Source: a virus. Taken from it: 39,435 nt of DNA. The translations under genes were made by a program, and so were the position numbers. Below the pieces are notes generated by a model. That model saw nothing but the letters and a program-made list of their open reading frames with translations, was not told the origin of the DNA and did not search any database. The DNA lies in UHGV virus genome UHGV-1377012. The stretch is one strand, 5' to 3'. The first letter of the stretch is position 1. Each line of letters starts with the position of its first letter. Positions 1-33,493 of this stretch are shown here, in pieces.

Positions 1-37
1 GTAACAGAGGGTTTTGTTCATTCATAGTGCAGGGTCA

Positions 38-2066: not shown

Positions 2067-3443
2067 CTAAATTTCTATCTCAAACGGAAGGCAATAATTC
2101 AGCATGCAATTGTCTGCATGATAGCGATCTTTAAAATGATTTGGGAATTCATCACTATCGCAAAGCTCTCCTATCCGTGACTCTTTAAGATAACTCACCG
2201 TACCTTTAAGGCCGGAAGTATTGATGCTCACAGTATCATCTGAAATGATCTTAACGTCGCTAGCAGATAGTTTTTTTCCTGTGAAATGAAAACCCATAGG
2301 ACAACCATCTTTTATAAATGAATACATTCCGTTGAGGGTTTTTCTAAATTGCAATGGCTTCACAGGAATATTAAATTTTATAATAATGCTGTTACCATCG
2401 ATAGAATGTGATTTATAACATAGAGGTGACCATGATGAACCTGACAACTTACTAGTTAAATACGCCTGTGCCATTTTTTCGCCATGTGCACGCTGGGCAT
2501 GTGGGTACATATGAATTTCGTTCGTCAGGTGATATCTTGGGCCAGAGATGTACATCTTAATGCCGGAATGTTTTGCTTCATCATGGGCCATGCGTTGCTC
2601 GACGTTAAGACCAAAGTGTGAGTTTATCCTTCTACCTTCGGTTTTAAAACCATGCCAACAGTAATTGCTTTGCTCAAAAATAAACTCTGGCTCTTTGCCC
2701 TGCCCTGTGATTTTTACAATATCTTTAACGTAATCATTTCTGAATGATAGAAGTTTTTCAGAATATCCTTTAGGGGCGATGGCATCATTTTCCCCCTGAA
2801 TCCAGAAGATGCCATCAACTTGAATATCACTTTTGATAATATCTTTTATTTTTTCGAGCATCCACATACCGTTCAGATAAGGGTAGCGGAATTTTGGCTC
2901 GCGATAATAAAGCAGTGATTTATTTCCTGATACTACATTGTAGTCAGAAGACTCTTTAGTTAGAGGTTTGTTATAGTTGTCACCATTAAGAATTAAATCT
3001 TTGCTAGGCTTAATAAGTTGCTCTATATACTGGGATCCCCTTCCGTGCCCGAAGATAATAAGATTGTCATTTGGAAACGCTTTTGAGATATGTGAAATTA
3101 TTCCGTATACAGGCCCTTCTCCTGCATCAATACCAAATGCCATTCTGTCTAAATTGGTTAAGCTTGCGCCGCCTGAGGACAAAGTAAATGCACTTGCCAA
3201 ATCAGTTGTGATGAATTTACTACCGTCTCTCTCACCCTCATATGATTCAAGATAAGAATCCCATGGGCTTGGTGTTCTCCATGTCTGTGAATAATCAACG
3301 GTTCCTGTTGAGTTGGATTGTCCGTAAATAATGAATACGCGGTTTTTCCTTCCAGCAACAAAATCTGCAAAAAGAAGACCAGATCCTGACAGCGCGCCGA
3401 TGGCCGCAGCTAATTTAATAAAATTTCTTCTGGAAACTGACAT
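2067..3443 (-). CDS. Secreted SGNH/SASA-family esterase (sialate O-acetylesterase-like), Tat signal peptide
   Basis: N-terminus MSVSRRNFIKLAAAIGALSGS is a twin-arginine signal; IIYGQSNSTG matches the GQSN catalytic block of SASA/SGNH esterases; visibly AT-rich; start moved to the ATG at 3443 with GAGGTG upstream. Confidence 0.65.
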   Translation of the reverse strand: MSVSRRNFIKLAAAIGALSGSGLLFADFVAGRKNRVFIIYGQSNSTGTVDYSQTWRTPSPWDSYLESYEGERDGSKFITTDLASAFTLSSGGASLTNLDRMAFGIDAGEGPVYGIISHISKAFPNDNLIIFGHGRGSQYIEQLIKPSKDLILNGDNYNKPLTKESSDYNVVSGNKSLLYYREPKFRYPYLNGMWMLEKIKDIIKSDIQVDGIFWIQGENDAIAPKGYSEKLLSFRNDYVKDIVKITGQGKEPEFIFEQSNYCWHGFKTEGRRINSHFGLNVEQRMAHDEAKHSGIKMYISGPRYHLTNEIHMYPHAQRAHGEKMAQAYLTSKLSGSSWSPLCYKSHSIDGNSIIIKFNIPVKPLQFRKTLNGMYSFIKDGCPMGFHFTGKKLSASDVKIISDDTVSINTSGLKGTVSYLKESRIGELCDSDEFPNHFKDRYHADNCMLNYCLPFEIEI

Positions 3444-5938: not shown

Positions 5939-5953
5939 TTACCTTTCGGGTAA
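5939..5953. promoter_or_regulatory. Perfect palindrome TTACC-TTTCG-GGTAA, candidate operator
   Basis: Immediately upstream of a TTGCAA hexamer (5955..5960) and of the LexA box; a half-site plus CCACATATGG lie at 5889..5910. Confidence 0.55.
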
Positions 5954-5990: not shown

Positions 5991-6010
5991 TACTGTATAT
6001 TTATACAGTT
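5991..6010 (+). promoter_or_regulatory. LexA (SOS) box TACTGTATATTTATACAGTT
   Basis: Perfect CTGT-N8-ACAG with AT-rich spacer, 20 bp upstream of the ATG at 6030 and just downstream of a promoter-like TTGCAA-N17-ATAAAT. Confidence 0.75.
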
Positions 6011-6029
6011 ATTGCATGGAGAAGATAAG

Positions 6030-6287
6030 ATGCAGCAGTATCACTATCCACTGGAAGACGGATTTACCGAAAGGATTTACACGCCGGGAGGCGTCAGGTC
6101 ACTGGTGGAGGGATCGCACTTGATGAAATTACTCCTGGATCTCGATAAGGATGGATTTAATGTCGATGGCCCACTTGCCGAACTGACTGCACTGATTAAC
6201 TACGTCACCAGCTCACAGATGTCTATGCAGGATCTGCAAACACATCTCGACTATTGTGCCGAACAATTACGAAAACAAACCACATAA
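6030..6287 (+). CDS. SOS-box-controlled small acidic protein (85 aa), candidate antirepressor
   Basis: ATG at 6030 with GGAGAA 7 nt upstream (the track start at 6012 is a TTG); plus-strand gene embedded in a minus-strand structural operon; preceded by the LexA box. Confidence 0.6.
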   Translation: MQQYHYPLEDGFTERIYTPGGVRSLVEGSHLMKLLLDLDKDGFNVDGPLAELTALINYVTSSQMSMQDLQTHLDYCAEQLRKQTT

Positions 6288-6310: not shown

Positions 6311-6318
6311 GTTACATG

Positions 6319-6615
6319 TCACGTCCCTTTTCTTAATGATAGCCATTCGAAAAATGATGACATTCCACCGCAGACAATAGCAAAGATGATCCCACCAAAG
6401 AAGAGAAGGCCAGCCTGCCACCACTCCCACCGCCATACATCCACAGCGCCAACCATACCAACAATCGCTCCAACAAATGGAATATAGCTCACGATGAAAG
6501 CAATGGGGGCTGCAATTATCCAGTGCAATCCCCACCATGATTCAAGCCCAGCCATAATTGCTGCCAACTGAAAAAGACCAACGACGATATAAACAATGAA
6601 TCCTATAGCTTGCAT
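6319..6615 (-). CDS. Small integral membrane protein (98 aa)
   Basis: Three hydrophobic helices, Trp/Gly-rich; convergent with the SOS-controlled gene. Confidence 0.5.
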   Translation of the reverse strand: MQAIGFIVYIVVGLFQLAAIMAGLESWWGLHWIIAAPIAFIVSYIPFVGAIVGMVGAVDVWRWEWWQAGLLFFGGIIFAIVCGGMSSFFEWLSLRKGT

Positions 6616-19889: not shown

Positions 19890-19897
19890 TTCCTCTC

Positions 19898-20599
19898 TTA
19901 TTTGCCATAGAGCACTTCGGCCGCACTACGCTGGCCTTCATTACCACCGGTGACCATGCCATCTTCAGACATCGCCTTTCCGATTTTCACGAACGTTTTG
20001 ACCAGATCAGGGTGATTACCCAGTCCGGTGGTGTTCAGATATTCTTTGAGTTCAGGTGTCCCGAACTGGTCAAGCGCACGCTGTGCGGCGCTAAGGTTAG
20101 AAATCAACTTGTCGCCACCGATTTCTTTGTCAGCTTTTACATCCGCAGCCCACTGCTCGGTTGTTTTCTGCCAGGCTTCTGCCTGGCGCTGCTGAACACC
20201 TGCCAGAATCTTCGGATAAGCATCAACCAGCTTTTGCGCTTGCTCGTTGGTCAGGTTAAGTTCTCGCGCCACCGGCTCGAATTCCTTCAACGCTTCTGTA
20301 TCCAGCTCTACGCCTTCGGCAGCCTGAAACTCGTACTTCTCAGGCGCACCCTCTGGTTTATCGCCGTCCTTTTTTTCATCCTGCTTATCGTTTTCAGGCT
20401 TTTTGTCATCAGCAGGTTTATCGCCATCAGCAACAGGTTGTGGCTTATCACCTTCCAGTTGTGATGGATCACCAACTGGAGCAGGGTTATCACCTGCAGG
20501 CGCTGACGGTTCTGACGCAGCCGGAGCTGCTCCACCATCGACTGGTTGCTCATTGCAAAGACGGCGATACAGCAAACGCTCAAATAAATTCATGATCAC
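19898..20599 (-). CDS. Scaffolding protein
   Basis: 233 aa, acidic low-complexity N-terminal half (Pro/Ala/Asp/Lys), between portal and capsid genes. Confidence 0.6.
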   Translation of the reverse strand: MIMNLFERLLYRRLCNEQPVDGGAAPAASEPSAPAGDNPAPVGDPSQLEGDKPQPVADGDKPADDKKPENDKQDEKKDGDKPEGAPEKYEFQAAEGVELDTEALKEFEPVARELNLTNEQAQKLVDAYPKILAGVQQRQAEAWQKTTEQWAADVKADKEIGGDKLISNLSAAQRALDQFGTPELKEYLNTTGLGNHPDLVKTFVKIGKAMSEDGMVTGGNEGQRSAAEVLYGK

Positions 20600-22857: not shown

Positions 22858-22894
22858 TTGACATTTAACGCACGAATTATTACCTTTCAGGTAA
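22858..22894 (+). promoter_or_regulatory. Promoter-like TTGACA followed 16 bp later by perfect palindrome TTACC-TTTCA-GGTAA
   Basis: TTGACA at 22858..22863, palindrome at 22880..22894; CCACATATG at 22830..22838; faces the tRNA-Arg gene. Confidence 0.5.
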
Positions 22895-23217: not shown

Positions 23218-23294
23218 GTGGCATTAGCTCAGCTGGACAGAGCAACCGCCTTCTAAGCGGTTGGTCGCAGGTTCGAATCCTGCATGCCACGCCA
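23218..23294 (+). tRNA. tRNA-Arg (anticodon TCT, reads AGA)
   Basis: 77-nt cloverleaf: acceptor GTGGCAT/ATGCCAC, D-stem GCTC/GAGC, anticodon stem ACCGC/GCGGT with loop CTTCTAA, T-arm GCAGG-TTCGAAT-CCTGC, discriminator G and encoded CCA. Confidence 0.9.
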
Positions 23295-23337
23295 GAATCA
23301 CGCCTAAGGACCGTGATGCCAGAAGTTCCAGGGGCTT

Positions 23338-23379
23338 GGCGGTGATGGTTTCCCTTGAAGGACTATCACCGCCCTTTTT
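23338..23379 (+). terminator. Hairpin GGCGGTGAT...ATCACCGCC followed by CTTTTT
   Basis: 9-bp stem with a large loop and a T5 run, 44 bp downstream of the tRNA. Confidence 0.45.
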
Positions 23380-23457
23380 ACAGCAGGACGCCATTGCGAT
23401 GACTTCATGCTGTAAACCAGTACAGCCACGGAAGGCATAACTCATTGCTTCCAGTTC

Positions 23458-23481
23458 GCCCACTTCAGTGGGCTTTTTTTT
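23458..23481 (+). terminator. Rho-independent terminator GCCCAC-TTCA-GTGGGC followed by T8
   Basis: 6-bp GC stem, tetraloop and eight T's. Confidence 0.7.
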
Positions 23482-23542: not shown

Positions 23543-24433
23543 ATGCTTGACTTCATCCGTGACATTTACTCCTCTTTCCGCCAAGCATCTCTTGAGCGAG
23601 TGAAAAGCCCGTTCCTTGGGGCATTTGTTTTTTCCTGGCTTTGCTTTAATTGGCAGATGTTAGCAATTCTATTTTTTAGTTCTAAGGATATTGAAAAGCG
23701 CCTTGCTATTATTAATGGCTCTTTCGGCATCGTCAGCTTTTTAATTGCGCCAATATGCACTACAGCATTGATAGTTATCCTTTTACCGCAAATTAATAAA
23801 TTGATTACAATAATACAAGATAAACCTAACTCAGACACAATTGAAATGAGCCTTGCATCTAAAATAAAGATCGCCGAACTGCAGCAACTATTAGCAGAAA
23901 ATGAAGCAAGAAAGAAACTTGCTGATAAAAAAGAAGAACGCTTCATTGAAGAGAATATTATTTCAATAAAAAAAGACCATGAAAAAGCAATAGATAACCT
24001 TAAAGACAAAGAAAGTAAAATCTCAAATCTCACGGACACAATAACTGAACTTCAGAGCAAACTGGTTAAAGCTGAGGCCACTCTCAAAGTTGAACAGGAG
24101 TCAAGATCCCAAGTGCAGAATGAATTGATTATTGAAAAAGAGAACAAGCGGAAATTAGAAGACAACATTCTGCACCTTAATTTAAGTTTAAAAAAAAACC
24201 AATCAGAATTGGCCATTGCAAAAGAAGCCTATGATAATACCTTGATGGCTTATAATGAACTTAACACAACATTAAAAAAAGCAGAAAGCTCAATAATAAA
24301 CTTCAATGCTAACTTTCCTTTTTTAACTGACATAAATAACAGCACCCCAAATACATACTTAAAAATAAATAAAAATGCATGGGAGCATTTAGTTAGTTTA
24401 AATTTAAGTCTAAAGGAAAAAATACAAAAATAA
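23543..24433 (+). CDS. AT-rich membrane-anchored coiled-coil protein (cargo gene, function unknown)
   Basis: 296 aa; two N-terminal hydrophobic helices followed by about 200 aa of Lys/Glu/Leu-rich heptad-like sequence; very AT-rich; opposite strand to the flanking terminase and portal genes. Confidence 0.7.
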   Translation: MLDFIRDIYSSFRQASLERVKSPFLGAFVFSWLCFNWQMLAILFFSSKDIEKRLAIINGSFGIVSFLIAPICTTALIVILLPQINKLITIIQDKPNSDTIEMSLASKIKIAELQQLLAENEARKKLADKKEERFIEENIISIKKDHEKAIDNLKDKESKISNLTDTITELQSKLVKAEATLKVEQESRSQVQNELIIEKENKRKLEDNILHLNLSLKKNQSELAIAKEAYDNTLMAYNELNTTLKKAESSIINFNANFPFLTDINNSTPNTYLKINKNAWEHLVSLNLSLKEKIQK

Positions 24434-24456: not shown

Positions 24457-25926
24457 TTACTCATACGGGTCATAATCTATTATAGCCTTACCCTGCAGCT
24501 GGCGCGGATCATTAAGTTTTTTTGTGACCGGAAAAGCAAACGTCAGCAGTAGCGCATCGCCTTTACCCGGCGAACGCCCAAGCCGCTCCTTGATATCTTC
24601 CTTCGGTTCGATAACGATTTTACCGTCCACGCGAACTTTGTACTCTGCCGCCGACAGATCGTCCGCTGTTTCCTGGTCATCCAGCATCCCGCCCAACCTC
24701 AGCCATGTCTTGCATGAGTTGAACATCTCCCCGCGCTTGTTGAGCATCTGAGGGTCAGTTGACGCACCACCAAACGGAACAAGTTGCCATGTACGTCCCC
24801 AGCCATCACCGATTGACTTCAAACCGGTTCCGTAACCGAAGTCGATGAATACCGCGTCAGCCTGATACTGGTCTTCAAAGTCAGCGATGCGCTTCGCCAT
24901 AATCAGATCGTCGGTGGTCTTGTTGCCAGTCCATAGCACCTTACTATGCAACCCCTGCCGCAGGTATATCACCGCGTCATCAACACCTGAATATGCCGGG
25001 TCAACACCGATTATCACCGGTGCATGTGCCACCTGCGCAGCAGTTACCACCCGTTTCATTGCCTCGTCAGTAAGACCGGTAGGGATAAACTGCAATTCAG
25101 ATGCATCAGGGAATATGCCGCGCACACGGATTTTAACGAAGTCGCTGTCTTCCCCGTAGTCATCAACCCATTTCTGCAATTGCTGCTTGTTAGTACCTTC
25201 CACCGTCCGGCTGTCAATCTGCGCAGTTTTCCAGCGGTGTTTATATTTGCGGAAACATTCACGGAAACGTCCGGTATTACGCGTCGGGTTTCCGAACGCC
25301 ACCCAGATAATCTCAGTGTCTTCGTCCGTAAGCGCACCCTCAGCAACTTCCCACACCAGATCCGCAATGTTCGACGCTTCATCGAATACCACGATGATGC
25401 GTTTGCGCTCGTTGTGTAGTCCGGCGAATGCCTCAGTGTTGTGCTCAGACCAGGGGATTGCGTCAGCTCGCCACCGCTTGTCGTGCCCAGGATCATTGCT
25501 GTACATCGCAGTAGCGGTACAGGTAAACCAGTCTTTCGTGATAGCAAGGTTCGACCACTTGATAATTTCCGGCCAGGTCTTCGTTCGTAGCTGGTTGTCG
25601 GTGTTGGCGGTCACCACGACCTTACAATCCTCGCAAGTGGACATGCCCCAGTTGATCAGCATTGAGATGAGTGCTGATTTACCAATACCGTGACCCGAAG
25701 CACGTGCCAGCATAAGCGGCTGATAGCGCGTCTCGGGATTCTGCAGGTGATCACGTATCTCTCGGAACGCATCGGCCTGCCACTGACGTGGGCCGGAAGC
25801 ATGTGCCAGTTCAGTCCCCTCTTCCCCCCACGGGAACGCATAGAGGGCATAGCCAAGCGGATCGTGAGTGAACCCTGCAATATCCTCGATCAACTGCTCT
25901 TCAGGAGATAACGCTGTATCTGTCAC
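24457..25926 (-). CDS. Terminase large subunit
   Basis: 489 aa; Walker A-like GHGIGKS near the N-terminus, acidic nuclease-like C-terminal half; overlaps the small terminase gene by 4 nt. Confidence 0.85.
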   Translation of the reverse strand: MTDTALSPEEQLIEDIAGFTHDPLGYALYAFPWGEEGTELAHASGPRQWQADAFREIRDHLQNPETRYQPLMLARASGHGIGKSALISMLINWGMSTCEDCKVVVTANTDNQLRTKTWPEIIKWSNLAITKDWFTCTATAMYSNDPGHDKRWRADAIPWSEHNTEAFAGLHNERKRIIVVFDEASNIADLVWEVAEGALTDEDTEIIWVAFGNPTRNTGRFRECFRKYKHRWKTAQIDSRTVEGTNKQQLQKWVDDYGEDSDFVKIRVRGIFPDASELQFIPTGLTDEAMKRVVTAAQVAHAPVIIGVDPAYSGVDDAVIYLRQGLHSKVLWTGNKTTDDLIMAKRIADFEDQYQADAVFIDFGYGTGLKSIGDGWGRTWQLVPFGGASTDPQMLNKRGEMFNSCKTWLRLGGMLDDQETADDLSAAEYKVRVDGKIVIEPKEDIKERLGRSPGKGDALLLTFAFPVTKKLNDPRQLQGKAIIDYDPYE

Positions 25927-26519
25927 TGATTACCATCCTGACGTTCTTTCAGTCTCTTCCTGGCTGCTGCTATGCGATCAGCAATTGTCACATTCACATT
26001 AACATCCATGCGTTCTTTGAACGCGTTGACGTCGACGTGCTTACCAATCAGTTCGAGGTTCTTCACCTTGTCAGGCCATTTAATTTTTTTGAGGATTGTC
26101 TCTATCGAATCCTCGTTCATGTTCATGATGGTCGATGACAGATCAAAGCCGCTAAGCGTAGTGCGCCAGATTTTCGGCCACTCGCGGATTGGCTTAAGGC
26201 TCCCATCGTCGTTGAGGATATCAATCACGTCCATCTGGTCGATCTCCACCAGGCGCATGAGAACGTAATCGGCACTGACGCGCATTCGTTTGTTGCGCTC
26301 CTCCATCAACTCGGCAATCCGTTTTTGAATGCGTTCATCGCGCATCATGACACTGGCTTTAACTGCCGCTGTATTTGGGGAGAATCCTGCGTTAATCGCT
26401 GCCTGAGTCTGGTTTTCAGGCGTTTTGATGTATGACTGGCAATAAGCCTCCTGCATTGCTGTTAGTGGCTTAAATTGCGTTGATTTGCGTTTATAGGTTT
26501 TAGGTTCAGCAGGCATCAT
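25923..26519 (-). CDS. Terminase small subunit
   Basis: About 198 aa; start placed at the ATG at 26519 because the track N-terminus (TITTTVTITTVV) is the translation of the GGTAATAG repeat region. Confidence 0.65.
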   Translation of the reverse strand: MMPAEPKTYKRKSTQFKPLTAMQEAYCQSYIKTPENQTQAAINAGFSPNTAAVKASVMMRDERIQKRIAELMEERNKRMRVSADYVLMRLVEIDQMDVIDILNDDGSLKPIREWPKIWRTTLSGFDLSSTIMNMNEDSIETILKKIKWPDKVKNLELIGKHVDVNAFKERMDVNVNVTIADRIAAARKRLKERQDGNQ

Positions 26520-26536
26520 AACCACCGTGGTAATAG

Positions 26537-26551
26537 TTACCGTTGTGGTAA
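26537..26551. promoter_or_regulatory. Perfect palindrome TTACC-GTTGT-GGTAA inside tandem GTGGTAATAGT(T)ACC repeats
   Basis: Four alternating half-sites across 26529..26558, 18 bp upstream of the small terminase start and just downstream of a terminator. Confidence 0.55.
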
Positions 26552-26562
26552 TAGTACCATGC

Positions 26563-26588
26563 AAAATAAAGCCGCCATAGTTGGCGGC
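26563..26588 (-). terminator. Hairpin GCCGCC-N6-GGCGGC followed by U-rich tract on the minus strand
   Basis: Lies between the last early gene (26638..26976) and the terminase operon; minus-strand tail reads TTTATTTTG. Confidence 0.55.
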
Positions 26589-26637
26589 AGTATTCAAAAC
26601 CCATCAAATTCATCATGCATAATCTACTCGTGACATG

Positions 26638-26976
26638 TCACACTATTAATTTCGTTTCATGCCAGCCTTTAGTCACCCAGCATTGTGAGTCACCATTACA
26701 CGGACATGAATTAACTGGAACTCTCTCGCCGCACTTACCGCAACGTTTTCTGCTGATCGATTTTATACGCCCGCGCACGCGTGCATCATCCTGGCGGATC
26801 AGTAACGCTATATACTCACCAAATTCGTAAGGCGCACGCCCGGGGCGACGCGTGGCACAGTTACGCTCCAGCATTTCAATTTCCTGAGCATCAAGCACAA
26901 TTTCCAGCTTACGCACACCAGATGCAGCTTGTCTGGCTCTCTGAGCGGATTTGCGCTCTGCTGCGGATTTAGCCAT
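26638..26976 (-). CDS. Cys-rich (zinc-finger-like) small protein, candidate late regulator
   Basis: C-terminal CGKCGE...CPCNG cluster; start taken as the ATG at 26976, which overlaps the upstream stop by 1 nt; last gene before the packaging operon. Confidence 0.45.
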   Translation of the reverse strand: MAKSAAERKSAQRARQAASGVRKLEIVLDAQEIEMLERNCATRRPGRAPYEFGEYIALLIRQDDARVRGRIKSISRKRCGKCGERVPVNSCPCNGDSQCWVTKGWHETKLIV

Positions 26977-30311: not shown

Positions 30312-30326
30312 TTACCTCTGAGGTAA
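30312..30326. promoter_or_regulatory. Perfect palindrome TTACC-TCTGA-GGTAA, candidate operator
   Basis: 4 bp upstream of the DUF1064 start; followed by an A-tract and CCACATAAG (30334..30342). Confidence 0.55.
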
Positions 30327-32239: not shown

Positions 32240-32319
32240 GGTAAGCCCTGTTATTAGTATTGGGATTACGGTTATTTTGTGCTGACACAAAAAAAAGATC
32301 AACCATATTTGGTTTTTTA

Positions 32320-32389: not shown

Positions 32390-32620
32390 TCATGAGTAGA
32401 AGAAGTATGCCAGTTCTGCTTTTGAGCGCAGCCATTGTCTTGTTTTACAGGCTTTAAAAAGCCCATTCATCAATACCTTACCTGGCATTTTGCGCTTACC
32501 TGTTAAGTGAGTCTGGATATAGTGACTCGTCGTTCCGGCTTCCTGTGCGAAGGCTTCACGCTCATCCGGAGTAAGTGCAAGCCAGTGCTTTTTGAAATCG
32601 AAATGTCCGTTATCGCTCAT
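32390..32620 (-). CDS. Cro-like HTH regulator
   Basis: 76 aa; GTTSHYIQTHLTGKRKMPGKV resembles the Cro/CI-type HTH; first gene of the rightward-equivalent early operon, divergent from the repressor-like gene. Confidence 0.65.
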   Translation of the reverse strand: MSDNGHFDFKKHWLALTPDEREAFAQEAGTTSHYIQTHLTGKRKMPGKVLMNGLFKACKTRQWLRSKAELAYFFYS

Positions 32621-32656: not shown

Positions 32657-32719
32657 TCACCCATAAGGTAACAAAAATCAAGGATAGTTACCTATGGGGT
32701 GCATTTACCTGTTGGGTAA
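32657..32719. promoter_or_regulatory. Operator cluster (OR-equivalent): three TTACC-N5-GGTAA-type sites
   Basis: TCACC-CATAA-GGTAA (32657..32671), TTACC-TATGG-GGTGC (32688..32702) and perfect TTACC-TGTTG-GGTAA (32705..32719) in the 154-bp divergent intergenic region. Confidence 0.6.
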
Positions 32720-32774: not shown

Positions 32775-33359
32775 ATGAAAAGTATCCAGGACGTCCGCAG
32801 GCAAAATCTCAACGACTTGATCGACCGTGAATTCAATGGTGTTCAGACGCGGATGGCAGAAAAACTTGGAACTCAGGCAAATCTGGTAAACCGCTGGGCT
32901 CTTGGCAAGAAGGTTATCGGCGACCAGGTTGCGCGAAAAATTGAAGCTGCCGCCAATAAACCCCGTAACTGGCTTGATATCGATCGCTCGCTTTCTCAGG
33001 AAGGTTTTCAGCCTGTCGGCCCGAGCGATATAGGTCAGCTGGCGGCTCACAACCTGGAACGCTGGATGAGCGAAAGCCGCGACCTTTCAACACAGGGAAA
33101 ACTTCACCGCGCATCCGGCGTCGCCCAGGTGACAATCAGCCGCCTGTTAAACAATGAGGTCAGCGTTTCCATTTCCACCCTGGAGAATGTTGCATCCGCA
33201 TTCGGGCGTCACGGCTATGAATTACTGATTCACCCGCACGACCCTGCGACCATCAACTATGACCGCTCGCGCTACGCATTGTTACCCGAAACCGAGAAAG
33301 CAAAGATCGAAAGTTACATTGAATTTGTCATCAACCAGAACGAAAAAAACAAACAATAA
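32775..33359 (+). CDS. Repressor-like DNA-binding protein with two HTH-like segments and no recognisable S24 autopeptidase domain
   Basis: 194 aa; TRMAEKLGTQANLVNRWALGKK and GVAQVTISRLLNNEVSVSISTLENVASAFG look like HTH motifs; no Ala-Gly/Ser...Lys LexA-type cleavage module seen in the C-terminal region; divergent from the Cro-like gene and followed by a strong terminator. Confidence 0.55.
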   Translation: MKSIQDVRRQNLNDLIDREFNGVQTRMAEKLGTQANLVNRWALGKKVIGDQVARKIEAAANKPRNWLDIDRSLSQEGFQPVGPSDIGQLAAHNLERWMSESRDLSTQGKLHRASGVAQVTISRLLNNEVSVSISTLENVASAFGRHGYELLIHPHDPATINYDRSRYALLPETEKAKIESYIEFVINQNEKNKQ

Positions 33360-33416: not shown

Positions 33417-33493
33417 TTACCTTAAGGGTAATTTTTTTAACTCATATCTATTGACACCAAACCAAATACGCATAATCATTACCTCAACGGTAA
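33417..33493 (+). promoter_or_regulatory. OL-equivalent: two perfect palindromes flanking a TTGACA hexamer
   Basis: TTACC-TTAAG-GGTAA (33417..33431), TTGACA (33451..33456), TTACC-TCAAC-GGTAA (33479..33493), directly upstream of the early-left operon. Confidence 0.55.

What the first reader, a model, noticed from the sequence alone, without database searches (positions are those of the whole stretch)
26520..26637. Late-operon entry: terminator followed by a four-half-site GGTAA/TTACC cluster 18 bp before the small terminase gene
The last early gene is followed by a good terminator, then tandem GTGGTAATAGT(T)ACC repeats giving alternating half-sites around a perfect palindrome, then the terminase start. 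The packaging and structural operon therefore appears to be gated by the same palindrome that marks the immunity region, not obviously by a Q-type antitermination site. The track N-terminus of the small terminase is an artefact of these repeats.
Basis: partly seen in the sequence, partly recalled or inferred. Interest (0 to 1): 0.5.

Follow-up and report, generated by a model that had tools for sequence, protein, structure and literature searches.

The report
Prophage repressor operators before terminase gene
The repeats in front of the small terminase gene are two binding sites for the prophage's own repressor, sitting on a small promoter just after a terminator; the equivalent site is already annotated in the related phage epsilon15, so the finding is correct but not new.

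Summary
The window is a phiV10/epsilon15-type (Uetakevirus) temperate phage of E. coli, and the genes here run on the minus strand. A strong intrinsic terminator (26588-26563) is followed by a tandem 11-mer repeat and then the TerS start codon. The functional unit is the 15-bp palindrome TTACC-N5-GGTAA. It has 9 perfect copies in the window (0.02 expected), all intergenic, and clusters at the OR- and OL-like immunity sites. Upstream of TerS there is one perfect copy (O2, 26537-26551) and one 1-mismatch copy (O1, 26519-26533). O1 contains the Shine-Dalgarno sequence and the A of the ATG. A conserved extended -10 element (TGgTACTAT, 26559-26551) abuts O2. The encoded repressor is a homologue of the SPC32H Rep tetramer (PDB 5D50), and its LexA-controlled antirepressor is also present. 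The epsilon15 RefSeq record already annotates the orthologous site as repressor-binding. All 9 epsilon15-like prophages from nine genera keep the same -10/operator layout. No Q-type antiterminator gene was found. The site gates only TerS-TerL. The structural, tailspike and lysis operons each have their own operator. Binding and promoter activity are inferred, not shown. Novelty is low.

The parts
26630..26641 (.). Perfect 12-bp palindrome GTGACATGTCAC. It contains the TGA stop codon (26640..26638, minus strand) of the Cys-rich gp49-like gene. It is an operon-end motif of unknown function.
   Evidence: The motif is conserved at the same stop codon in epsilon15, SPN1S and 9/9 epsilon15-like prophage loci (7 perfect, 2 with a central mismatch).
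26563..26588 (-). Intrinsic (rho-independent) terminator ending the early-right operon: hairpin 26588..26571 plus TTTATTTT 26570..26563.
   Evidence: -16.7 kcal/mol, z = -3.6. The epsilon15 record annotates the orthologous stem-loop 39646..39672 as a terminator. Other lineages carry different hairpins at the same place.
26551..26559 (-). Extended -10 promoter element TGgTACTAT (TG 26559-26558; hexamer TACTAT 26556..26551). There is no -35 match. The predicted transcript start is near 26544, inside O2.
   Evidence: One search gives the best promoter score at this site. TGnTA(C/G)TA is kept in 9/9 epsilon15-like prophages found through TerS alone and in BUCT554, where the upstream context differs. 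The same -10/operator geometry occurs at the PL-like (33479) and 30312 promoters. No transcript mapping exists, so this is inferred.
26537..26551 (.). Operator O2: a perfect Rep operator, TTACCGTTGTGGTAA (+ strand).
   Evidence: PWM score 23.1; shuffle maxima 4-15. The half-sites are identical in all the relatives compared (7 with a perfect site, 8 of 9, where the Erwinia dacicola locus has one mismatch), while the N5 spacer varies. The orthologue is annotated as repressor-binding in epsilon15.
26519..26533 (.). Operator O1: a 1-mismatch Rep operator, TAACCACCGTGGTAA (+ strand), 18 bp centre-to-centre from O2. It contains the Shine-Dalgarno GGTGG (26526..26522, minus strand) and the A of the first ATG.
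   Evidence: It is present in 8/9 epsilon15-like prophages at 18-20 bp spacing and is degenerate in Klebsiella-type lineages. It is borderline on its own.
25923..26519 (-). Small terminase gene, starting at ATG 26519 or 26516. The listed TTG start at 26597 is an artefact.
   Evidence: (Terminase_2, E = 1.5e-29).
24457..25926 (-). Large terminase gene, the second and last gene of this operon.
26638..26976 (-). Cys-rich 112-aa protein (epsilon15 gp49 / N15 gp46 family, phrog_536 'transcriptional regulator'), the last early-right gene. Its function is untested.
   Evidence: There is no PDB or Pfam hit. The AlphaFold model has low confidence.
32775..33359 (+). Prophage repressor Rep, the protein inferred to bind O1 and O2.
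   Evidence: E = 4e-42 to the SPC32H Rep (PDB 5D50), with the N-terminal DNA-binding domain the best conserved part.
6012..6287 (+). Antirepressor Ant, with a LexA box at 5993-6008 just upstream. This is the inferred induction route.
   Evidence: E = 1.3e-45 to 5D50 chain E; CTGTATATTTATACAG.
32657..32719 (.). OR-like cluster of three operators (32657 with 1 mismatch, 32688 with 2 mismatches, 32705 perfect) between the Rep gene and the cro-like gene.
33417..33493 (.). OL-like pair of perfect operators 62 bp apart (33417, 33479). The second one abuts a TTGACA-type promoter.

Best explanation
The interval 26519-26641, read on the minus strand, is the control region of the two-gene packaging operon (TerS-TerL) of a phiV10/epsilon15-type prophage.

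The order along the transcript direction is as follows:
- the stop codon of the last early-right gene;
- an intrinsic terminator that insulates the operon from early-right read-through;
- a -35-less extended -10 promoter (TGgTACTAT);
- two adjacent operators for the prophage repressor Rep. O2 covers the end of the -10 and the predicted start point. O1 covers the 5' leader DNA, including the ribosome-binding site and the start codon.

In the lysogen, the tetrameric Rep occupies O2 and O1 and excludes RNA polymerase or blocks its escape. One tetramer has two DNA-binding units, so it could hold both sites. On DNA damage, LexA cleavage lets the antirepressor Ant be made. Ant dismantles Rep, and this promoter opens together with the dozen or so other operator-bearing promoters of the phage. 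No antiterminator is needed.

Shown here: the sequence elements, their non-random genome-wide distribution, their conservation, and the homology of Rep and Ant.

Inferred: Rep binding at these two sites, promoter activity and start point, and that one tetramer spans both sites.
For: Motif statistics. There are 9 perfect and 5 one-mismatch TTACC-N5-GGTAA sites, all intergenic, against 0.02 expected. They cluster at the OR/OL positions flanking the repressor gene.

Proteins. Rep is homologous to the SPC32H Rep (E = 4e-42) and Ant to 5D50_E (E = 1e-45), with a LexA box upstream of ant. Rep of SPC32H binds palindromic DNA as a tetramer and is released by Ant (PMC9638917, as read; PMC9986798).

Prior annotation. 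Epsilon15 record NC_004775.2 annotates the orthologous site 12..27 and six others as repressor-binding. Its sequence shows the same O2 - 3 bp - O1 - ATG layout.

Distribution in relatives. Equivalent sites occur in SPN1S, BUCT554 and Tyrion. None lies near TerS in the Q-bearing lambdoid phage phiES15, which has a 60%-identical TerS.

Unbiased sample. In 9/9 epsilon15-like prophages from nine genera, TGnTA(C/G)TA abuts a TTACC-N5-GGTAA site (perfect in 8, one mismatch in 1). In 8/9 there is a second site 18-20 bp downstream. The 69 loci with TerS at or below 61% identity have none.

Selective constraint. Substitutions fall in the N5 spacers and the linker, not in the O2 half-sites.

Promoter geometry. 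A -10 hexamer sits at -12..-7 from the operator centre at the PL-like and 30312 promoters as well.

No antiterminator family was found.
Against: - There are no binding, footprint or transcript data for this phage. The epsilon15 and SPC32H primary papers could not be read.
- The promoter has no -35 and only a 4/6 hexamer, so it may be weak or may need an activator.
- O1 is statistically borderline on its own. Its conserved GGTGG could be kept for ribosome binding rather than for Rep. It is degenerate in Klebsiella-type lineages.
- In BUCT554-type lineages a gene, not a terminator, precedes the promoter. Insulation is therefore not universal, and read-through may contribute to expression.
- Simultaneous derepression of all operons leaves the timing of late expression unexplained.
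Confidence: 0.7

Rival explanations
1. Roadblock only. There is no promoter here. TerS-TerL are expressed by partial read-through of the terminator from the early-right promoters. Rep bound at O2/O1 acts as an elongation block (stoperator-like) that backs up the terminator in the lysogen.
For: The site has no -35 and an imperfect -10. In BUCT554-type and some Klebsiella-type lineages the upstream gene ends about 14 nt before the element, with no terminator. The operators lie downstream of any upstream promoter.
Against: TGnTA(C/G)TAT is conserved in 9/9 epsilon15-like prophages and is not part of the operator consensus at other sites. The -10/operator geometry matches that of two clear promoters. 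Most lineages place a strong terminator immediately upstream, using at least three different hairpin sequences. That argues the operon needs its own start.
Confidence: 0.15
2. Activator-dependent late promoter. The weak promoter needs a phage activator. Candidates are the Cys-rich gp49-like protein encoded immediately upstream (26638-26976) and the PerC-like protein (36334-36633). Rep operators would only add lysogenic silencing. This adds a step to the best explanation rather than replacing it.
For: The promoter lacks a -35. The Cys-rich protein belongs to phrog_536 'transcriptional regulator', is highly conserved, and sits directly before TerS in most relatives. A PerC-like activator family member is present (phrog_868).
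Against: No conserved candidate binding site lies at a fixed distance upstream of the -10. The GTGACATGTCAC palindrome is about 91 bp from the predicted start in the window and about 73 bp in epsilon15. It is also separated from TerS by inserted genes in several lineages. The region between terminator and -10 is only the U-tract. No function is known for either protein.
Confidence: 0.1
3. Terminase recognition site. The repeats are where the small terminase binds to start DNA packaging (pac/cos-type site), as in lambda cosB, which lies just upstream of Nu1.
For: The position is immediately upstream of TerS, and the half-sites are repeated.
Against: The same motif occurs at 14 intergenic places, including OR and OL, so it cannot specify a unique packaging start. 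Phages with homologous TerS but other immunity systems lack it. Epsilon15 annotates it as a repressor site.
Confidence: 0.02

Closest known systems
Repressor-binding sites annotated in Salmonella phage epsilon15 (NC_004775.2, features 12..27, 2931..2947, 19895..19911, 32479.., 32554.., 32616.., 35906..)
   Same: The position is orthologous, directly before TerS after the gp49 terminator. The core is the same TTACC-N5-GGTAA. The layout is the same: perfect site, 3 bp, 1-mismatch site, ATG. The genome-wide distribution is the same.
   Different: The N5 spacers and the mismatch position in O1 differ. The window's Rep is only moderately similar to the epsilon15/SPC32H type (42% identity is reported for phiV10-type versus epsilon15 in PMC9782041). 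The epsilon15 record annotates only the first site of the pair and no promoter.
Rep-Ant lytic switch of Salmonella phage SPC32H (PDB 5D50/5D4Z; Kim and Ryu 2013; Kim et al. 2016)
   Same: Rep and Ant homologues and a LexA box before ant are all present. Rep is a tetramer with paired DNA-binding domains recognising palindromes.
   Different: Those studies were not readable here. As far as I could see they concern the switch and the protein structures. Whether they treat the TerS operators is unknown to me.
Phage P1 C1 repressor with many dispersed operators, and mycobacteriophage L5/Bxb1 stoperators
   Same: One immunity repressor acts at many sites spread over the genome, including morphogenetic operons, instead of only at an immunity-region switch (from my own knowledge of these systems).
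   Different: The P1 and L5 sites are asymmetric, and the repressors are unrelated. P1 late genes also need the activator Lpa. Stoperators act within transcription units in an orientation-dependent way, whereas the sites here are symmetric and promoter-associated.
Lambda-type Q antitermination at PR'/qut
   Same: It is a junction between early and late genes with a terminator in front of the late genes.
   Different: There is no Q-family gene here, and no promoter-proximal qut/pause arrangement was identified. The terminator here precedes rather than follows the candidate promoter.

Membership tests
Rep (SPC32H/epsilon15-type) operator | Matches the palindrome found in the phage's own immunity-region operators | tested here: met
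   O2 is a perfect TTACC-N5-GGTAA and O1 has 1 mismatch. The same motif occurs at the OR-like (32657/32688/32705) and OL-like (33417/33479) sites.
Rep (SPC32H/epsilon15-type) operator | The cognate repressor is encoded in the same genome | tested here: met
   The protein at 32775-33359 matches the SPC32H Rep 5D50_A, E = 4e-42. Ant 6012-6287 matches 5D50_E, E = 1.3e-45.
Rep (SPC32H/epsilon15-type) operator | Orthologous site recognised as a repressor site in a characterised relative, and conserved | tested here: met
   Epsilon15 carries a 'protein_bind repressor' feature at 12..27. The site is perfect in 8 of 9 epsilon15-like prophages and has one mismatch in the ninth.
Rep (SPC32H/epsilon15-type) operator | Direct binding of Rep to this DNA | not testable with these tools
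   Needs EMSA, footprinting or ChIP. The primary papers are not held in the library.
Intrinsic terminator | G+C-rich hairpin followed by a U-tract, more stable than chance | tested here: met
   (-16.7 kcal/mol, z = -3.6). Termination in vivo was not tested.
Extended -10 sigma-70 promoter | TG one base upstream of a -10 hexamer with A2 and T6 | tested here: met
   TGgTACTAT at 26559..26551. TGnTA(C/G)TAT is kept in all epsilon15-like relatives.
Extended -10 sigma-70 promoter | Transcript 5' end 6-8 nt downstream of the hexamer | not testable with these tools
   No transcript data are available.
Q-type late antitermination | A Q-family antiterminator gene upstream of the late genes | tested here: not met
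   Pfam, PHROG and NCBIfam scans of the early genes gave no antiterminator family. The control phage phiES15 has an annotated Q.
Terminase recognition (pac/cos) site | Unique in the genome and co-varying with TerS | tested here: not met
   There are 14 copies in the window. The motif is absent from 69 loci with more distant TerS homologues and from phiES15.

The most novel reading that the evidence does not exclude
Epsilon15-like phages may have no dedicated early-to-late switch at all. One tetrameric repressor would directly gate each terminator-insulated operon. Order and level of expression would be set by promoter class: consensus promoters for early genes, an extended -10 promoter for terminase, and a conserved ATGTGGTT-N7-TAnAAT element for the structural, tailspike and lysis operons. 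The operon-end palindrome GTGACATGTCAC, which embeds the last gene's TGA stop just before terminators, could be a second and so far undescribed control site. For example, it could bind the Cys-rich gp49-like protein and tune read-through into the next module.
Probability: 0.15. Interest if true: 0.5.

Novelty: already known. Interest (0 to 1): 0.22.

Why it matters
The result explains how a common E. coli prophage keeps its DNA-packaging genes silent. The locus is present in 609 of 5426 complete genomes. The immunity repressor acts directly at the operon, with no antitermination cascade.

This is useful for annotation. The TerS start codon is wrong in the phiV10 and SPN1S records, and operator and promoter features are missing from most records of this genus. 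It is also useful for engineering these phages.

It does not open a new question, because the orthologous site is already annotated as repressor-binding in the type phage. What remains open is how late timing is achieved. The two further conserved motifs noted in passing may bear on that.

Tried and rejected
- **Terminase (pac) site.** Rejected: the motif is multi-copy and follows the immunity system, not TerS.
- **Q-type antitermination.** No such gene was found.
- **GGTAA-N3-TTACC as the functional unit.** It occurs only once in the window, and 1-mismatch copies are not in regulatory places. The recurring unit is TTACC-N5-GGTAA.
- **A second promoter between O2 and O1** (AACTAT as the -10). 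There is no usable -35 at 16-18 bp (manual check on the sequence).
- **GTGACATGTCAC as a class-I activator site for the TerS promoter.** Its distance to the promoter differs between the window and epsilon15 (about 91 versus 73 bp), and other genes are inserted between them in several lineages.
- **Known RNA families.** Only a sub-threshold rseX match caused by the terminator (E = 0.21).
- **The Cys-rich protein.** There is no Pfam, NCBIfam or PDB match, and all 120 listed homologues are 'hypothetical'. The AlphaFold model is too poor for a fold search (pLDDT 58). A ribbon-helix-helix reading of residues 22-67 is my own guess from the sequence pattern and is unconfirmed.
- **Literature.** The epsilon15 genome paper and both SPC32H papers are not in the held library. 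The ZX5 paper does not define operators.

Full report
**What the window is.** The 801 bases around the finding are 98-99% identical to Escherichia phages vB_EcoP_PAS61, phiV10, TL-2011b and the O157 typing phages 9 and 10. They are more distantly related to Salmonella phage epsilon15 and Enterobacter phage Tyrion. The window is therefore a phiV10/epsilon15-type temperate podophage (genus Uetakevirus).

All genes around the finding run on the minus strand:
- a Cys-rich protein, 26976..26638;
- the small terminase TerS, from ATG 26519 or 26516 down to 25923 (Pfam Terminase_2, E = 1.5e-29);
- the large terminase TerL, 25926..24457.

**Checking the observation.** Read on the minus strand, the interval contains the following elements in order.
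- The hairpin GCCGCCAACTATGGCGGC (26588..26571) followed by TTTATTTT. It folds at -16.7 kcal/mol, z = -3.6.
- The sequence GCA-TGGTACTAT-TACCACAACGGTAA-CTA-TTACCACGGTGGTTA-TG-ATG.
- The 11-mer GTGGTAATAGT (+ strand), present twice, 18 bp apart.

So the terminator, the tandem repeat and the alternating GGTAA/TTACC half-sites are all real and lie at the stated coordinates.

**Which palindrome matters.** GGTAA-N3-TTACC occurs perfectly only here, and its 1-mismatch copies are not in regulatory places. The opposite reading, TTACC-N5-GGTAA, occurs perfectly nine times in 39.4 kb, where 0.02 is expected. The perfect copies start at 5939, 22880, 23496, 26537, 30312, 30374, 32705, 33417 and 33479. One-mismatch copies start at 2047, 26519, 32320, 32657 and 39234.

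A position-weight matrix built from perfect sites of five genomes separates these 14 sites from everything else in the window. All 14 lie between genes. The consensus extends to A-TTACC-N5-GGTAA-T.

The finding therefore holds two such sites:
- O2 at 26537-26551 (perfect);
- O1 at 26519-26533 (one mismatch), 18 bp centre to centre from O2.

**Who binds it.** Three sites (32657, 32688, 32705) lie between a 194-aa helix-turn-helix protein gene (32775-33359, + strand) and a divergent cro-like gene (32620..32390). Two more (33417, 33479) lie just downstream of the repressor gene, next to a TTGACA-type promoter reading rightward. This is the OR/OL layout of a lambdoid immunity region.

The 194-aa protein is a clear homologue of the repressor Rep of Salmonella phage SPC32H (PDB 5D50, E = 4e-42). 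Its N-terminal DNA-binding domain is the best conserved part. Its partner, the small antirepressor Ant, is encoded at 6012-6287 (E = 1.3e-45 to 5D50 chain E), with a perfect LexA box at 5993-6008.

According to papers I could read, SPC32H Rep binds palindromic DNA as a tetramer whose DNA-binding pairs come from different dimers, and a tetrameric Ant releases it (PMC9638917; PMC9986798).

**It is already annotated in the type phage.** The RefSeq record of epsilon15 (NC_004775.2) carries 'protein_bind, repressor, lysogeny' features at 12..27, 2931..2947, 19895..19911, 32479.., 32554.., 32616.. and 35906... TerS starts at 47, and a terminator is annotated at 39646..39672, the end of the record.

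Its sequence reads terminator-GCGTGTTACTA-TTACCAAAACGGTAA-TTA-TTACTTCGGTGGTAA-CA-ATG. That is the same order as in the window: terminator, TGnTACTAT, perfect operator, 3 bp, one-mismatch operator, start codon. SPN1S, BUCT554 and Tyrion have the motif at the equivalent places genome-wide.

**Does the site go with the repressor or with the terminase?** Cronobacter phage phiES15 has a 60%-identical TerS but is a lambdoid siphophage with an annotated Q protein. It has no such site near TerS and no perfect site anywhere in its genome, only two 1-mismatch matches.

In a sample chosen only by TerS similarity (80 species-representative genomes), results split cleanly:
- All nine loci with TerS at or above 69% identity carry a TTACC-N5-GGTAA site about 35 nt before TerS (perfect in eight, one mismatch in the Erwinia dacicola locus). 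These are prophages of Pseudocitrobacter, Citrobacter (two species), Klebsiella, Erwinia dacicola, Scandinavium, Superficieibacter, Kluyvera and Pseudescherichia.
- Eight of the nine have a second, 1-mismatch site 18-20 bp downstream.
- All 69 loci at or below 61% identity have none.
- The two loci in between, at 66-68% identity (Pseudomonas lundensis, Samsonia), each carry one perfect site upstream of TerS. I did not examine them further.

A motif present 14 times in the genome cannot be a unique packaging signal either. The terminase-recognition reading is rejected.

**A promoter on the operators.** Immediately upstream of O2 lies TGgTACTAT, an extended -10 element (TG, one base, a hexamer with A2 and T6). 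It has no -35 match, because the -35 position falls in the terminator stem.

This element is not part of the operator consensus at other sites. It is kept as TGnTA(C/G)TAT in all nine independently sampled prophages. It is also kept in BUCT554, whose upstream sequence is unrelated.

Two clear sigma-70 promoters in the window have a -10 hexamer in the same position, -12..-7 from the centre of an operator. They are the PL-like promoter at 33451-33479 and the promoter TTGATT-17-TTTAAT at 30312. This repeated geometry is my main reason to read the TerS site as a repressible promoter rather than a bare roadblock.

The start point would fall near 26544, inside O2. The leader would be about 25-28 nt and would carry the Shine-Dalgarno GGTGG inside O1. 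The 30312 operator likewise embeds an SD (GAGG) 3 nt before an ATG. All of this is inference, since no transcript data exist.

**Variation supports constraint.** Across the eight relatives compared and the 64 distinct TerS-upstream variants recovered from IMG/VR, changes fall in the N5 spacer of O2 and in the linker (CTA, CAA, TTA, TAAAA). The IMG/VR scan was conditioned on the O2 half-sites and the -10, so only searches are unbiased for those positions.

O1 varies more. It is good in the E. coli, Salmonella and Enterobacter lineages and degenerate in Klebsiella-type lineages, where only an SD remains.

The upstream neighbour also varies. Three different hairpin-plus-U-tract sequences occur, or in some lineages the end of an inserted gene with no terminator. 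A terminator directly before the promoter is thus common and has been rebuilt from different sequences, but it is not universal.

**Extent of the operon.** TerS-TerL are followed by a convergent 296-aa gene (23543-24433), terminators and a tRNA-Arg(TCT) at 23218-23294. The portal/head operon starts further on, behind its own operator at 22880. The tailspike gene has one at 5939 and the lysis cassette one at 2047. Epsilon15 has the same arrangement. The finding is therefore the entry to the packaging operon only.

**The TerS N-terminus.** The 224-aa ORF from TTG 26597 reads through the terminator and both operators, giving the '...TITTTVTITTVV' tract. Four observations argue for the ATG start:
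- TL-2011b, epsilon15 and Tyrion annotate the ATG start, whereas phiV10 and SPN1S annotate the long form.
- The Pfam domain begins at residue 19 of the ATG-start protein.
- An SD precedes the ATG in every lineage.
- In Klebsiella-type lineages, nucleotide similarity upstream of the ATG is lost while the coding sequence stays similar.

**No antiterminator; candidate activators.** Pfam, NCBIfam and PHROG scans of the early-right and early-left genes gave replication, recombination, Ead/Ea22, DUF and methylase families, but no Q or N type family.

Two possible regulators exist:
- the Cys-rich protein just upstream (true length 112 aa; phrog_536 'transcriptional regulator'; homologues include N15 gp46, phiKO2 gp45 and ZF40);
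- a PerC-like 'transcriptional activator' at 36334-36633.

Nothing links either to this site. The Cys-rich protein has no Pfam or PDB relative, and its model was too poor to search with.

**Mechanism and confidence.** I put about 0.9 on the two sites being Rep operators and about 0.6 on a Rep-repressed extended -10 promoter at 26559-26551. The composite picture given as best explanation gets about 0.7. The main rival is a roadblock on read-through transcripts (0.15). An added activator requirement is possible (0.1).

**Novelty.** The element is orthologous to an annotated repressor site of epsilon15, and the repressor/antirepressor pair has solved structures. The design of one repressor with dispersed operators has precedents in P1 and the L5-type mycobacteriophages (my own knowledge). 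I rate it as already known.

**Other observations.** Three further observations, listed separately, may be new. They are an operon-end palindrome embedding stop codons, a conserved ATGTGGTT element at the other late operons, and fixed 62-bp operator pairs.

Noticed in passing
window 26630-26641 and 6311-6322; L004 (epsilon15) 39612, 19517, 2142, 26618; L005 38653, 19662, 2174, 26722; L006 27924, 5660; L012 20377, 2702: The palindrome GTGACATGTCAC (core GTGAC-N2-GTCAC) sits at operon ends. The TGA stop codon of the last gene lies inside it for the gp49-like gene, the gp18-like gene and, in relatives, Rz. An intrinsic terminator usually follows. There are 32 perfect copies in 289 kb of related viral loci, against 0.02 expected. 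It is present at the gp49 stop in 9/9 epsilon15-like prophage loci. Its function is unknown.
   Followed up: partly
window, minus strand, starts at 32308, 30339, 22835, 6285, 5906, 2011: The motif ATGTGGTT/ATATGGTT occurs six times (2.5 expected on both strands). All copies are on the transcribed strand and all are intergenic. It is conserved at orthologous places in epsilon15, SPN1S, BUCT554 and Tyrion. At the structural, tailspike and lysis operons it lies 7 nt before TAATAA, TAATAG or TATAAT and 40-52 bp downstream of a Rep operator. It is absent upstream of TerS. It may be a late-promoter or activator element.
   Followed up: partly
window 30312/30374 and 33417/33479; L004 32555/32617 and 35907/35969; same in L005 and L006: Rep operators come in pairs exactly 62 bp apart at the PL-like promoter and at an internal early-right promoter in all four genomes. 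Tight pairs 17-20 bp apart occur at OR and at TerS. This fits a tetramer with two DNA-binding units, with looping or side-by-side binding.
   Followed up: partly
window 23218-23294 (+): A tRNA-Arg (anticodon TCT) lies in the moron region between the terminase and head operons. It overlaps a listed minus-strand ORF (23224..23463). A second LexA-box-like sequence, CTGTAAACCAGTACAG, lies at 23410-23425.
   Followed up: no
window 5993-6287: An antirepressor gene (homologue of SPC32H Ant) has a perfect LexA box. It is divergent from the tailspike gene, whose Rep operator (5939) is about 50 bp away.
   Followed up: yes
L002 (phiV10) 41-715; L005 (SPN1S) 1-669; window 26520-26597: The public records of phiV10 and SPN1S annotate TerS from the upstream TTG, through the terminator and operators. 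The epsilon15, TL-2011b and Tyrion records use the ATG.
   Followed up: yes
window 26440-26700: This locus is present at 90% identity or more in 609 of 5426 complete E. coli genomes, mostly on chromosomes, so the prophage type is common.
   Followed up: no
window 32775-33359: The repressor has no peptidase S24 domain and gives two helix-turn-helix-type Pfam matches (residues 21-61 and 106-147). The second falls in the part that forms the tetramerisation and Ant-binding domain in PDB 5D4Z.
   Followed up: no
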